A DNA stretch of 60,490 bases, filler included, from Gonapodya sp. JEL0774 (taxonomy: Eukaryota), in assembly GCA_027604505.1 (NCBI GenBank). It is 5 parts of 5 records of this genome, joined end to end, with 100 filler letters (N's around TTAATTAATTAA, not from the genome) between each part and the next. Parts side by side here need not be neighbours in the genome. Positions count along the whole stretch, not along the records: positions 12,179 to 24,243 come from JADIIX010000349.1; 4 more parts are not named here. One strand, given 5' to 3'. This document shows positions 12,998 through 15,876 of this stretch, one piece after another. How positions within the stretch are numbered: position 1 is the stretch's first letter; each line of letters begins with the position of its first letter. The translations under genes were made by a program, and so were the position numbers. The notes under the pieces were generated by a model. That model did no database searches, was not told the origin of the DNA, and saw only the letters and a program-made list of their open reading frames with translations.

Positions 12998-13663
12998 TCA
13001 CACCTCAATTGTGCGTCGAGCATTGGAAAGTGCCTTGAATGCGCTTTCACCAGCCTCACCAATCGAGTTGACTGGAGTCAAAGTAGAGGAGAGAGAAGAG
13101 AGTAGAGAGGAGACCGTGTGTGAGTCAGACTCAGAAACTCTTGCGCGAGAGCGAGCGGGAGGTCACACTCTGATACTCACAATAAAGGTTAAGTGATGTC
13201 AAGGTGGAGTTGGTCTTGAGGGCCTCAGCCAGCGCTCTGGCGCCAGCCCCACCAATCGAGTTATCTGCAGTAGTAGAGTCCAGAGGAGAGAGAGGAGAGA
13301 GAGGAGACGGCGTGTGTGTGTGTGTGTTCGTGTGGGGGTGAGACAGACTCAGCGACTCTGGAGGGGGAGCGAGAGGGAGGTCACACTATGAGACTCACAA
13401 GAAAGGTTAAGCGATGTCAAGGTGGAGTTGGTCTTGAGGGCCTCAGCAAGCGCGCTGGCGCCAGCCTCACCGATCGAGTTCCCTGTGGGTTTGGTGGGCC
13501 GGGGTGGTGGTAAAATCATGCGATAGAAGACACATTAACATCACTATGCATAACTCGCCATTAGCCTTGCTGGACTCACCCATCAACGTTAGGGTCCGGA
13601 CGGCACTATTGTTTTTGAGCGCGTGGGCGATCGCCCTTGCTCCGGCATCTCCAATTGACTTCC
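12998..13663 (-). repeat. Tandem LRR exon-intron units (three 84-nt phase-1 exons plus a terminal exon)
   Basis: Exons 13399-13482 and 13181-13264 are near-identical. Their downstream introns share GTGAGT.TCA.AGTGTGACCTCCC.CTCGCTC and CT-rich tails. Confidence 0.9.
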
Positions 13664-15876
13664 CTTTGGTGGAGGGACGACAGTTGGAGGAGGGGGAACA
13701 GGTAAGACGGGAGTAGAGCGTCACGTTTCGCGACTACTTGGTGAGAGTAGAAACCCGCAAATTGAGACCCAACTCACACGACAGATCAAGTTTGGTTTCG
13801 TTGTTGGCTATGTCCTGCAGCACCTTGGTTAAAGCACCTGCCCCGGTTCTTTCTGTGTTTCCGAAATCTTTAGCTAGTAGGTTCGTGATTGTGGAGGCTT
13901 CGCATGAGTACCAAGTGATTTGGGTGGTGTATGCCAACTCACCCAACATCCATGTCAACAGGTCTTTCTCAGATGAAATTCTGGCAGGATCGCCTTTCGG
14001 CAGTGTCTTCTCCCGGATACGGTGAACACTCTTCAGAAGGGTTTGTGCAAGTTCTCGCTGCCCTTGGGAATAGTACGCTCTTGCGAGTGCGTGCTGGGCG
14101 GCCAGCAGATCCGGATGGTCTTTCGATAGGACTCTTTTCCTAGCAGCAATGACGAGTTTGAGCATGTTCACTGCCTTGTCTACTTGTCCGGTATACTCGT
14201 ATGCGAGGGCGAGCTCTTGCTGCGCCTCAAGCATAGAAATGTCCTCTTGTGTAGAGGCTGGATGTAGAAGGCGTCTGAATGTTTTATCCAGTTGGGCAAG
14301 CCAACCTCTCGCCAGTTGTTGTCTTCCAGAGACACATACTTCAAGCCATAGTGCTGCTTCTGCGAATCGTCCATCGGAGTTCAAGCACCGCCCAACCAGA
14401 AGACAAAGATCGTATCTCGGTTCCAGCTCCATTCCTTCGCCACTTCCCAGTACCTTCACGGCGTGCGGGAGGTACTCCCTCCATCGCTCTCGATTCTCCC
14501 ACTCGTTGGTGGGAAATATTGAGCTGATGTGTGTGATTGCCTCTTCCATCTTTTTCGACGCAAGGCGCTGTGTGCACACCCAGTCCCATGCCGCCAGGTG
14601 CACAAGACGGTGGAGATCATACACTTCATCCTCTCTGTTGTTTTCCTCTGAGCGACGTGACACAAATGCGTACCCGATGAGTGTATTGATCGCTACTTCC
14701 ATTTTCACGGCAGTCCCGGCGGTGGGCAGGATGGTTCGAGGGATGGACTTCCATTCGATACACGCCATGAAGCCCAGGATGTCCGCTGCAAGGAGATTTT
14801 CTTGAGTTATCCGCTTGAACGAGACCATCCACGTTTTGGCCACTGTACTTTGGGATTTCTCGTAATGGGTTTGGTCATGGAAGGCTTCGCTAAGAAGTTC
14901 CGCCGTGGATTCCTCCAGCAGTTCCCGATACCTCCTGATTGTAGTTGAAGTATTATTTAGGTACGCTGCTGCTTGAGCTATCGCAAGCGGAAGGTTTGTG
15001 AGTTCCTTGAGGAGTTTTGCGGTGTTCAACTGGTCCTCGAGCAATTCTTTTCTTTTGAGTGAATTCCTGAAAAACTCTACCGCCTCCTCGTAGCTCATTG
15101 CTTCCATATCGATGGTTTCAGCTCTTGCGAGGAATGTTCCCACCTTCAGAGGGCGGGTTGTGAACAGAATGAACCCTTGTTCGCTCTGTGGAAGGTAGTA
15201 ATCAATACCTCTACCCTGCTCAGTGTTGAGCATTATCTCTGCGTCGTCGGCATTGTCTACGATCAAGAGCCACCGTCCGGCTGCTTCCTCGCTCAAATAT
15301 CGCTTGACAGCCTCCTTTATGTCTTCCGTTGCCCCAGTCGTATGAGATATGCCAACTTTAATAGCCACCTCCTTGCACGCCTGCTCAAAGCTCTCCATGC
15401 TGAGCGCAGGAAACCAGAAGACTGAGTAGTCTGGATATGTCCCCTTCACTCTGTACGCAAACTCGAGTGCAACTTGCGTCTTTCCCACCCCACCGAGTCC
15501 CACAAGAGCTGCCCTCTGACAATCCTTATCGTCAAAGAGTTTTTTGTCCAAGGTCTCGAGGATGTGACCCCGTCCCACAAACTGTTTGTTCCTCGAAAAT
15601 GGAATGTAGTAGTGTGGCGGTGAGGAGCCGGGATTCGCATCAACTCTGAATTGAAAAGCAATGATGACATTCATGATATTGCAGCGGTCACAGGTACGGA
15701 AAGTGAGCACGCGGAGCCTTGAATGGTGGAGCTTACCTCGAGCCTTGGTTGTTAGAGTTGCCGATGTGAACGCGGCCACCTTCAATGTGCTGGGAGTGTA
15801 TTATTATGTTGGTGACGTTACTCGTCGGTGCAAGCGAATTTGGAAAGGTTTGTTGTCCATCATGGGTGGTCAGCAT
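12998..15876 (-). CDS. NLR (STAND) protein: N-terminal HET-s-like amyloid motif, NB-ARC, TPRs and C-terminal RI-like LRRs; about 777 aa
   Basis: Exons 15876-15737, 15645-13778, 13663-13580, 13482-13399, 13264-13181 and 13071-12998 are all GT-AG and phase-compatible, giving one open frame. Motifs: IPFSRNKQFVGR, P-loop GLGGVGKT, Walker B WLLIVDNADD, ILFTTR, NLPLAIAQAAAY, LHRLVH. TPRs (e.g. DHPDLLAAQHALARAY). LRRs (e.g. NSIGEAGASALAEALKTNSTLTSLNL). Confidence 0.88.

What the first reader, a model, noticed from the sequence alone, without database searches (positions are those of the whole stretch)
12998..13800. A fungal NLR with LRRs: NB-ARC-TPR spliced to 84-nt one-repeat-per-exon LRR modules
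Seen: the long NB-ARC/TPR exon has a GTGAGT donor at 13777 (after ...IANNETKLDLS). It is followed in phase by three exactly 84-nt exons and a terminal exon, each encoding a 28-aa RI-like LRR (WKSIGDAGARAIAHALKNNSAVRTLTLM; GNSIGEAGASALAEALKTNSTLTSLNLS; YNSIGGAGARALAEALKTNSTLTSLNLY; FNSIGEAGESAF...). Established: fungal NLRs typically use WD40, ANK or TPR sensors rather than LRRs, whereas 28-aa LRRs on 84-nt exons characterise animal NOD2-type NLRs. Inference: an amyloid motif-NB-ARC-TPR-LRR chimera, i.e. independent recruitment of an LRR sensor to an NLR, with a dual TPR+LRR sensor region.
Basis: partly seen in the sequence, partly recalled or inferred. Interest (0 to 1): 0.88.

Follow-up and report, generated by a model that had tools for sequence, protein, structure and literature searches.

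The report
Fungal immune receptor with leucine-rich repeats
An early-diverging aquatic fungus (Gonapodya) carries a gene family predicted to splice leucine-rich repeats, the sensor of plant and animal immune receptors that surveys reported absent from fungal ones, onto a fungal-type receptor that likely triggers an amyloid-switched cell-death protein, a broken copy of whose gene lies head-to-head beside it.

Summary
Confirmed on the minus strand. An intact NB-ARC/TPR frame is followed by three 84-nt phase-1 exons and a terminal exon encoding 28-aa RI-like LRRs. The same gene is on record as P0002 (NCBI label Gonapodya sp. JEL0774). Three paralogs on other contigs keep the TPR-to-LRR junction (P0005 fully, P0003 cap only, P0081 weakly), which argues against misassembly. 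None of the other 114 listed relatives has LRRs.

- A probable 69-nt phase-1 intron (13942-13874) is the likely graft point, giving 754 aa rather than 777.
- The TPR array is short, so a dual sensor is doubtful.

Best reading: an amyloid-signalling NLR that swapped most of its TPRs for exon-encoded LRRs, an independent origin of the NB-LRR design. Splicing is untested (no RNA run listed), function is inferred, and transfer from Dikarya is plausible but unresolved by the tree. The papers read say fungal NLRs lack LRRs.

The parts
15737..15876 (-). Exon 1 (predicted; ATG 15876): short N-terminus with HET-s-type amyloid R0 motif at about 15810-15754
   Evidence: GTAAGC donor and CAG acceptor join it in frame. 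Pfam HET-S PF17108 E 0.031, below cut-off. 10.9 bits against a profile of 143 repeats of HET-S relatives, 0 of 2000 shuffles as high. Not part of NCBI model P0002.
15646..15736 (-). Intron 1, 91 nt, phase 2 (predicted)
13943..15645 (-). Exon 2, 1703 nt: NB-ARC (Walker A, Walker B, sensor-1, GLPL-like and MHD-like motifs present; motif names recalled), helical linker and a short 42-aa TPR array
   Evidence: Pfam; motif positions; AlphaFold2 model; fold matches to Apaf-1, NRC1 NB-ARC and 6MFV
13874..13942 (-). Probable intron 2, 69 nt, in frame, phase 1: likely graft point of the LRR module
   Evidence: GTGAGT...TAG. Removed in P0002. P0003 and P0005 also lack most of this stretch, and P0004's model stops inside it. 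An alternative in-phase acceptor lies at 13868.
13778..13873 (-). Exon 3, 96 nt: degenerate LRR cap (helix-strand)
   Evidence: Shared with P0003 and P0005 (17 of 31 residues identical to P0005); helix 111-123 and strand 128-130 in the P0005 model
13580..13663 (-). Exon 4, 84 nt, LRR 1 (AAG acceptor)
   Evidence: homologous repeat in P0005
13399..13482 (-). Exon 5, 84 nt, LRR 2
13181..13264 (-). Exon 6, 84 nt, LRR 3; recent duplicate of exon 5 together with its downstream intron
   Evidence: 76 of 84 nt identical to exon 5; downstream introns 67% alike against 44-57% for the other 5 intron pairs
12998..13071 (-). Exon 7, terminal LRR and stop
   Evidence: P0005 ends in a homologous terminal unit
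16178..17064 (+). Broken het-S-like gene, head-to-head with the receptor about 300 nt from its ATG: HeLo domain and two-repeat prion-forming domain (about 16876-17061). Frame breaks near 16223, 16481 and 16620; GTG where relatives have their start Met
   Evidence: Pfam HeLo 48.1 bits; PDB HET-s/S HeLo E 4e-11; tblastn of P0245, P0241, P0242 and P0243 across three frames
12179..24243 (.). The contig that holds both genes (12065 nt between N-linker joins); sequence beyond the joins is probably unrelated
   Evidence: N runs; five pieces of steadily falling length; same length as the contig of P0002

Best explanation
This is an intact NB-ARC receptor gene of Gonapodya, predicted to splice a module of one-repeat-per-exon LRRs onto a shortened TPR array, and it likely works as an amyloid-signalling immune receptor in the manner of Podospora NWD2/HET-S. 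Shown here: the reading frame, the splice signals and phases, the domains, the paralogs, the R0-like motif and the head-to-head het-S-like gene. Inferred mechanism: (1) at rest the TPR-LRR arc holds the NB-ARC domain in its ADP state; (2) a non-self ligand binds the concave LRR face, whose variable residues sit at repeat positions 28 and 1, the latter being the codon split by each phase-1 intron; (3) ATP exchange and oligomerisation cluster the N-terminal R0 motifs into a beta-solenoid seed; (4) the seed converts the prion-forming domain of a HET-S-like protein, whose HeLo domain permeabilises the membrane and kills the compartment. The neighbouring effector is broken, so the partner would be the intact HET-S-like protein P0245 acting in trans. 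Inferred origin: an NB-ARC-TPR/het-S pair of Dikarya type (horizontal transfer about 0.6, old vertical inheritance about 0.3) lost most TPRs and gained a cap-LRR-terminal exon module through a phase-1 intron, before the family expanded.
For: Gene real: open 754/777-aa models. P0005 has the full NB-ARC-TPR-cap-5 LRR-terminal unit on a 39.9-kb contig, P0003 the cap on a 10.1-kb contig and P0081 a weak LRR on a 9.8-kb contig. P0002 and P0005 are as alike in the LRRs (64 of 83) as in NB-ARC (253 of 316). The P0005 C-terminal part folds as TPR-cap-RI-like arc, pLDDT 78, matching the NLRP1 LRR at rmsd 2.0-2.9. Amyloid link: R0 beats 2000 of 2000 shuffles. It ranks P0245 repeat 2 second of 147 repeats and shares with both P0245 repeats a Gln at position 6, where at least 130 of 143 other repeats have another residue. 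R0 resembles repeat 2 more than repeat 1, as reported for NWD2 (PMC4344463 section 8). A second pair is suggested by adjacent locus tags of P0004 and P0241 on a 36,791-nt contig. The receptor is not decaying like its neighbour: 7.7 frameshifts expected at the neighbour's rate, 0 seen, P about 5e-4. LRR variation: 17 of 28 positions invariant over 6 inner repeats, with 5 residue types at position 1 and 4 at position 28.
Against: No transcript was seen. All gene models are predictions from the same kind of splice signals, and all LRR-bearing members carry one organism label. The first LRR acceptor is AAG, and read-through would stop at 13734. Exon 1 is in no NCBI model, its Pfam score is below cut-off, and in register with P0245 it lacks one residue at the arch (position 11). 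Both receptor-adjacent het-S-like copies are broken (window and P0241), and the local repeats match R0 poorly (ranks 42 and 80 of 147). Only three full LRRs are present, and 6 repeats are too few to show diversifying selection. The tree does not nest Gonapodya inside Pezizomycotina: unresolved in the careful tree and outside them at SH-aLRT 98 in the quick tree.
Confidence: 0.65

Rival explanations
1. The gene is spliced as modelled, but the LRRs are not the ligand sensor: they cap or autoinhibit the NB-ARC domain or act as an integrated decoy, while the remaining TPRs (alone or with the LRRs, the first reader's dual sensor) bind the ligand.
For: TPR part conserved between P0002 and P0005 (166 of 213); only 3 LRRs here and about 1 in P0081; TPRs are the sensor in ordinary fungal NB-ARC-TPR receptors (PMC12881547 passage on PLP-1).
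Against: TPR array cut to 1 TPR_12 stretch against 3-7 in relatives. LRR number varies between paralogs (3 versus 5) and variation clusters at the end of the strand.
Confidence: 0.14
2. The LRR exons are not, or only rarely, spliced to the NB-ARC-TPR frame: the main product ends at 13734 (or at the intron-2 stop, as in P0004's model), and the LRR exons are a separate or dead unit.
For: Intron 2 is in frame and open in the window; the first LRR acceptor is AAG; P0004's model ends before any LRR.
Against: Five phase-1 GTGAGT donors in a row keep one open frame to a conserved terminal unit. The LRR part is as conserved between paralogs as NB-ARC. The LRR module has no Met-led start of its own that I could see.
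Confidence: 0.1
3. The locus is a decaying relic: an accidental fusion beside a dead effector, no longer under selection.
For: Adjacent het-S-like gene has three frame breaks and no ATG; the P0241 copy is also broken. In Podospora, nwd2 became a pseudogene once its effector was lost (PMC4344463).
Against: 2265-nt frame intact with all NB-ARC motifs; P about 5e-4 under the neighbour's decay rate; an intact effector candidate P0245 exists.
Confidence: 0.07
4. The contig comes from another eukaryote co-assembled with the fungus, or from a misassembly, so it is not a fungal NLR.
For: No LRR-bearing relative from any other organism, including Gonapodya prolifera, among the 120 hits listed (of 1995); short contigs; reads could not be checked.
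Against: The junction recurs on three other contigs with diverged sequence. The contig's 4-mer profile (r 0.81-0.88 to the other four pieces, which are 0.73-0.90 among themselves) and GTGAGT-over-GTAAGT bias match the rest of the window. The window also holds SepSecS, known from Gonapodya.
Confidence: 0.04

Closest known systems
Podospora anserina NWD2/HET-S amyloid-signalling pair (PMC4344463)
   Same: N-terminal R0-like motif on a STAND receptor; divergently transcribed adjacent gene with HeLo domain and two-repeat prion-forming domain; short spacing (about 0.3 kb versus 0.6 kb); R0 closer to repeat 2.
   Different: NB-ARC rather than NACHT; TPR plus LRR rather than WD40; in a monoblepharidomycete; here the effector is broken and the receptor intact.
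Pezizomycotina NB-ARC-TPR NLRs (e.g. PNT1, PLP-1; the amyloid/NB-ARC/TPR class, 68 in Sordariales, PMC12258605 Table S9)
   Same: NB-ARC region up to 56% identical; same 42-aa TPR type; one 100/100 clade against prokaryotic relatives.
   Different: TPR array shortened and followed by an intron-rich LRR module; 0 of 114 non-Gonapodya hits carry such LRRs.
Animal NOD1/NOD2/NLRC3 and coral NLRs (NACHT-LRR)
   Same: 28-aa RI-like LRRs, 44-57% identical over the repeats; fold matches to NOD2 and NLRP1 LRR; one repeat per 84-nt exon (recalled, not found).
   Different: NACHT not NB-ARC, no TPR, death-fold effectors; LRR likeness is no greater than to Mortierellaceae RNI-like proteins.
Plant NB-LRR proteins (ZAR1, NRC, Sr35)
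   Same: NB-ARC switch plus C-terminal LRR; NB-ARC fold match, e.g. NRC1 8BV0 TM 0.71 by target length.
   Different: RI-like 28-aa repeats rather than plant-type repeats (recalled); TPRs interposed; amyloid motif rather than CC or TIR.
Brown algal ROCO-LRR and NB-ARC-TPR genes (PMC3341825)
   Same: One repeat per exon; repeat-number variation; variable sites reported on the concave face.
   Different: There the LRRs sit on ROCO GTPases and NB-ARC carries TPR exons; here LRR exons sit on NB-ARC and the TPRs are intron-free.

Membership tests
NLR / STAND receptor | NB-ARC or NACHT NOD with intact Walker A/B and downstream motifs | tested here: met
   PF00931 48.9 bits over cut-off 23.5; motifs at P0002 residues 59, 135, 169, 227, 352
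NLR / STAND receptor | C-terminal superstructure-forming repeats and N-terminal signalling module | tested here: met
   TPR_10/12 and LRR_6 over cut-off; R0-like motif, whose exon is predicted
NLR / STAND receptor | Ligand- and nucleotide-dependent oligomerisation | not testable with these tools
   needs biochemistry
NBS-LRR architecture (strict sense) | NOD and LRR in one polypeptide | tested here: inconclusive
   Open spliced models and paralog records; no transcript seen
Canonical fungal NLR as surveyed (WD40/ANK/TPR/HEAT, no LRR) | Absence of LRRs | tested here: not met
   LRR_6 43.2 bits in P0002 and 79.5 bits in P0005, against statements in PMC4986451 and PMC12881547
NWD2/HET-S-type amyloid pair | Adjacent, divergently transcribed gene with HeLo domain and two-repeat prion-forming domain | tested here: met
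NWD2/HET-S-type amyloid pair | R0 motif with hydrophobic 3, 6, 8, 14, 16; Gly 10, 17; Asn 1, 18; basic 13 | tested here: inconclusive
   With one gap at 11: positions 3, 8, 10, 13, 14, 16, 17, 18 fit; 6 is Gln (as in P0245) and 1 is Ile
NWD2/HET-S-type amyloid pair | Adjacent effector intact | tested here: not met
   three frame breaks and no ATG; intact P0245 lies on another contig
NWD2/HET-S-type amyloid pair | R0 templates the effector's beta-solenoid and causes cell death | not testable with these tools
   needs seeding and killing assays
Animal NOD2/NLRC3-type NLR | NACHT domain with NOD2_WH/HD2 and death-fold effector | tested here: not met
   NB-ARC hit; no NACHT or death-fold hit in P0002

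The most novel reading that the evidence does not exclude
A fresh origin of the NB-LRR immune receptor caught in progress: Gonapodya took a Dikarya amyloid cell-death pair (NB-ARC-TPR receptor plus HET-S) by horizontal transfer and refitted the receptor with 84-nt phase-1 LRR exons. The intron-split codon is a ligand-contact residue, so exon duplication, exchange and skipping would generate a receptor repertoire that funnels onto one shared HET-S-like executioner in trans.
Probability: 0.33. Interest if true: 0.92.

Novelty: new variant of a known kind. Interest (0 to 1): 0.8.

Why it matters
Surveys and a 2025 review state that fungal NLRs lack LRRs, and discuss whether NOD-LRR was lost in fungi or arose separately in plants and animals (PMC4986451, PMC12881547). 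A young family that holds both TPR-only (P0103) and TPR-LRR members would be a direct intermediate of the TPR-to-LRR switch and a small, testable case of convergent NB-LRR assembly. It would also extend HET-s-type amyloid signalling from Dikarya to zoosporic fungi. The R0/HET-S read-out is an established assay, so sensor swaps can be tested directly.

Tried and rejected
- Sequencing runs: none was listed for 12900-15950, so no RNA holder was listed and no reads could be laid; this is no evidence either way.
- No whole genome is held, so paralog DNA and exon sizes were not seen.
- Longer relatives of the C-terminal piece of the het-S-like gene: none at E 0.1 among 527 candidates, although P0245 is a clear relative found another way, so this blank is weak. 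PDB sequence searches with that piece and with exon 1 found nothing meaningful.
- Single-protein scan of prokaryotic genomes: 0 of 44 candidates confirmed. The alignment scan gave 26-34% identical NB-ARC proteins, used as outgroup.
- Five metagenome loci showed no HET-S-like neighbour, no LRR and no R0 within the held flanks. None of the N-termini scored on the repeat profile.
- NACHT-LRR proteins from ENA were checked as possible fungal NLR-LRRs; they are closest to coral NLRs (46-49%) and were set aside. Mortierellaceae LRR proteins show no NB-ARC.
- An ascomycete-only donor was dropped: one of the 8 organism-named non-Gonapodya HET-S relatives is a basidiomycete.
- Horizontal transfer by nesting was not shown; no AU test was run.
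- Earlier-findings look-ups returned nothing.
- Atlas searches gave NB-ARC-TPR clusters for whole P0005 and generic LRR clusters for its C-terminal part; no cluster with both was shown, and small families cannot appear there.
- No complex prediction was run, since amyloid templating is not suited to it.
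Full report
OBSERVATION. The feature is on the minus strand and every coordinate holds. The frame 15800-13734 is open for 688 codons. A GTGAGT donor at 13777 is followed by exons 13663-13580, 13482-13399 and 13264-13181, each 84 nt, and a terminal exon 13071-12998. All these introns are phase 1, 97-134 nt long, with GTGAGT donors; the acceptors are AAG, CAG, CAG, CAG. A lone acceptor-84-donor spacing is common by chance: 6 at 84 nt, and 0-9 at 78-90 nt, in the window. 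The tandem, in-phase run of similar LRRs is what is real. Exons 5 and 6 share 76 of 84 nt, and their downstream introns are 67% alike against 44-57% for the other five pairs, which points to a recent duplication of exon plus intron.

SOURCE AND PARALOGS. The window is five pieces of 12,078 to 11,951 nt joined by N-linker runs, so only 12179-24243 is true context. The best hit, P0002 (NCBI label Gonapodya sp. JEL0774), is this same gene: from residue 11 on it is contained in my 7-exon model. It is therefore a gene prediction on the same DNA, not independent support. It removes an in-frame 69-nt intron at 13942-13874. P0003 and P0005 lack most of the same stretch and P0004's model stops inside it. 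I take it as a probable intron, which gives 754 aa and makes the 96-nt exon 13873-13778 the N-cap of the LRR module.

Five other proteins with the same label are among the 120 hits listed of 1995. P0005 has NB-ARC, TPR, cap, five LRRs and a homologous terminal unit. P0003 (partial) ends in the cap. P0081 ends in one weak LRR (13.5 bits). P0004 and P0103 have no LRR. A profile from 305 non-Gonapodya repeats hit 3 of 120 proteins, all with the Gonapodya label, one being the gene itself. The search covered only 354-1127-aa proteins. P0002 and P0005 share 253 of 316 residues in NB-ARC, 166 of 213 in the helical/TPR part, 17 of 31 in the cap and 64 of 83 in the LRRs. A diverged junction on several contigs argues against misassembly. 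P0003 (91% in NB-ARC) could be an allele rather than a paralog.

DOMAINS AND FOLD. Pfam gives NB-ARC, TPR_10, TPR_12 and LRR_6 above cut-off for P0002, and the nucleotide-binding motifs are present (names recalled). The TPR array is short: 1 TPR_12 stretch against 3-7 in all 8 non-Gonapodya relatives scanned. AlphaFold2 on P0002 with 30 rows is confident over NB-ARC and TPR but poor over cap and LRR (pLDDT 31-54), where TPR rows of relatives were probably misaligned. It matches Apaf-1, plant NB-ARC domains, NOD2 and the TPR-STAND 6MFV. The C-terminal 296 residues of P0005 (4 rows) fold as TPR hairpins, a low-confidence linker, cap and a beta-alpha arc, with mean pLDDT 78; the arc matches the NLRP1 LRR at rmsd 2.0-2.9. 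By sequence the LRRs are closest to Mortierellaceae RNI-like proteins (mostly 55-63%), then coral NLRs and NLRC3 (best 120 of 890, ranked partly by repeat number). This does not identify a donor and gives no sign of animal origin. Over 6 inner repeats (2 window, 4 P0005), 17 of 28 positions are invariant. Position 1 shows 5 residue types and position 28 shows 4. These lie at the end of the LxxLxLxxN strand, the usual binding face (recalled; the same face carries selected sites in algal ROCOs). Position 1 is the codon split by each intron. That P0005 has the same exon layout is inferred, not seen.

AMYLOID MODULE. A predicted first exon (15876-15737) joins in frame and carries a HET-s-like motif. 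Pfam HET-S gives E 0.031, below cut-off. A profile of 143 repeats from 78 HET-S relatives (the 79 of 150 hits of 270-312 aa, minus the Gonapodya one) gives 10.9 bits; it was the top window peptide among 1821 six-frame peptides, and 0 of 2000 shuffles reached it. On the plus strand, about 300 nt from the ATG, lies a het-S-like gene: HeLo 48.1 bits, PDB HET-s/S HeLo E 4e-11, collinear with full-length relatives through a two-repeat prion domain. It has three frame breaks and GTG in place of the start. The representative search (best 150 of 229) returned two proteins with the Gonapodya label. P0241 is broken, and its locus tag is adjacent to that of P0004 on a contig of the same length, so probably a second pair. 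P0245 is intact, 307 aa. R0 ranks P0245 repeat 2 second of 147 repeats. With one gap it matches it at positions 1, 3, 6, 8, 10, 13, 14, 17 and 18 of the published scheme, including an unusual Gln 6; the broken neighbour's repeats rank 42 and 80. The layout is that of Podospora nwd2/het-S, divergent and 0.6 kb apart. At the neighbour's break rate 7.7 frameshifts would be expected in the receptor and none is seen (P about 5e-4, assuming equal time). The N-termini of the NCBI models of P0081 and P0005 are compatible with an R0-like motif in the shifted frame; this is a weak hint.

ORIGIN. All 33 organism-named non-Gonapodya hits are Pezizomycotina (class labels recalled); 81 hits carry no organism. 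NB-ARC identity reaches 56%, against 27-32% for the prokaryotic matches that cover the region. Of 20 HET-S relatives looked up, 2 are Gonapodya, 7 Pezizomycotina, 1 an agaricomycete and 10 have no organism. The tree had 65 rows: 6 Gonapodya, 28 of the 33 named hits (5 Alternaria near-copies left out), 16 unnamed, L001 and 14 prokaryotic. The careful tree puts all fungal-type rows in one 100/100 clade and the five Gonapodya rows around the LRR forms in a 96/90 clade. It leaves their position and that of P0103 unresolved. The quick tree placed Gonapodya outside the rest at SH-aLRT 98, with a long-branch warning. No Basidiomycota, Mucoromycota or other chytrid rows were available. Transfer from Dikarya is suggested by high identity, a 1.7-kb intron-free exon, the paired effector and the absence of other early-diverging fungi among named hits, but it is not shown. 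That the LRR is derived within Gonapodya follows from its absence in all relatives sampled, whichever origin holds. P0002 and P0004 share a 16-residue deletion, while the tree pairs P0002 with P0003, which hints at exchange between paralogs. Composition gives no sign of contamination.

LITERATURE. Ten searches were run. PMC4986451 (passages): no LRR motifs in 5,616 fungal NLR candidates, no hits in chytrids. PMC9815663 (passages): ANK/TPR/WD40 in place of LRR, no mention of Gonapodya. PMC12881547 (passages): NBS-LRR appeared absent from analysed fungi; describes the NWD2/HET-S model. PMC12258605 (passages, section 12, 17 supplements searched, part 1 of file 10 read): screened 122 proteomes, including G. 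prolifera, with LRR profiles allowed, and reports no LRR-bearing NLR in what I saw; one supplement (s005) was too large to read and figures are not held, so a listing there is not excluded. PMC13449251 (passages, section 12): no fungal LRR-NLR stated; its figures were not visible. PMC11291939 (passages): G. prolifera has many xenologs, some intron-rich; nothing on this family. PMC3341825 (abstract, passages) and PMC4344463 (passages, section 8) were used for comparison. bioRxiv 10.1101/314781 (passages) was used for SepSecS. The PNAS paper on independent NBS-LRR origins was seen only as a reference title. I found no report of this architecture in these searches; most subscription journals are not covered.

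VERDICT. The feature is real and not an obvious artefact. The architecture is new for fungi as far as searched, though the proteins sit in NCBI as hypothetical. It is built from known parts and a known signalling logic, so it is a new variant, not a new kind. Odds: spliced NB-ARC-TPR-LRR product about 0.85; full mechanism with LRR sensing and amyloid output about 0.65. Interest 0.8, held back by a single organism label, no transcript and no function test.

Noticed in passing
window 344-931 (-): SepSecS fragment (170.8 bits): selenocysteine machinery, rare in fungi and reported for Gonapodya prolifera.
   Followed up: partly
window 12079-12178, 24244-24343, 36350-36449, 48440-48539: N runs with a short linker join five pieces of steadily falling length; the window is probably concatenated contigs, so neighbours across joins are not real context.
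   Followed up: yes
window 9380-11392 (-): 671-codon open frame with a protein kinase domain (53.4 bits); on the neighbouring piece, not linked to the receptor.
   Followed up: no
window 7809-8570 (+), 44343-44900 (-), 52584-53090 (-): UreF, Methyltransf_16 and 4HBT thioesterase fragments.
   Followed up: no
window 19977-20196 and 24569-24908: Tandem arrays with periods 44 (5 copies) and 42 (about 5 copies, inside long open frames).
   Followed up: no
window 42613-44184 (+), 27110-28644 (-): Long open frames (523, 499, 389 codons) with no Pfam hit; the latter two overlap low-complexity G/A repeats.
   Followed up: no
window 15980-16177 (+): The spacer between the two genes is homologous to the upstream part of P0241's model (78% over 81 codons), so receptor, spacer and effector were likely duplicated as one unit after the effector's ATG was lost.
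   Followed up: partly
proteins P0122-P0240: Mortierellaceae hold many 900-1300-aa proteins with long 28-aa RI-like LRR arrays and an unannotated remainder, without NB-ARC; a large uncharacterised fungal LRR family.
   Followed up: partly
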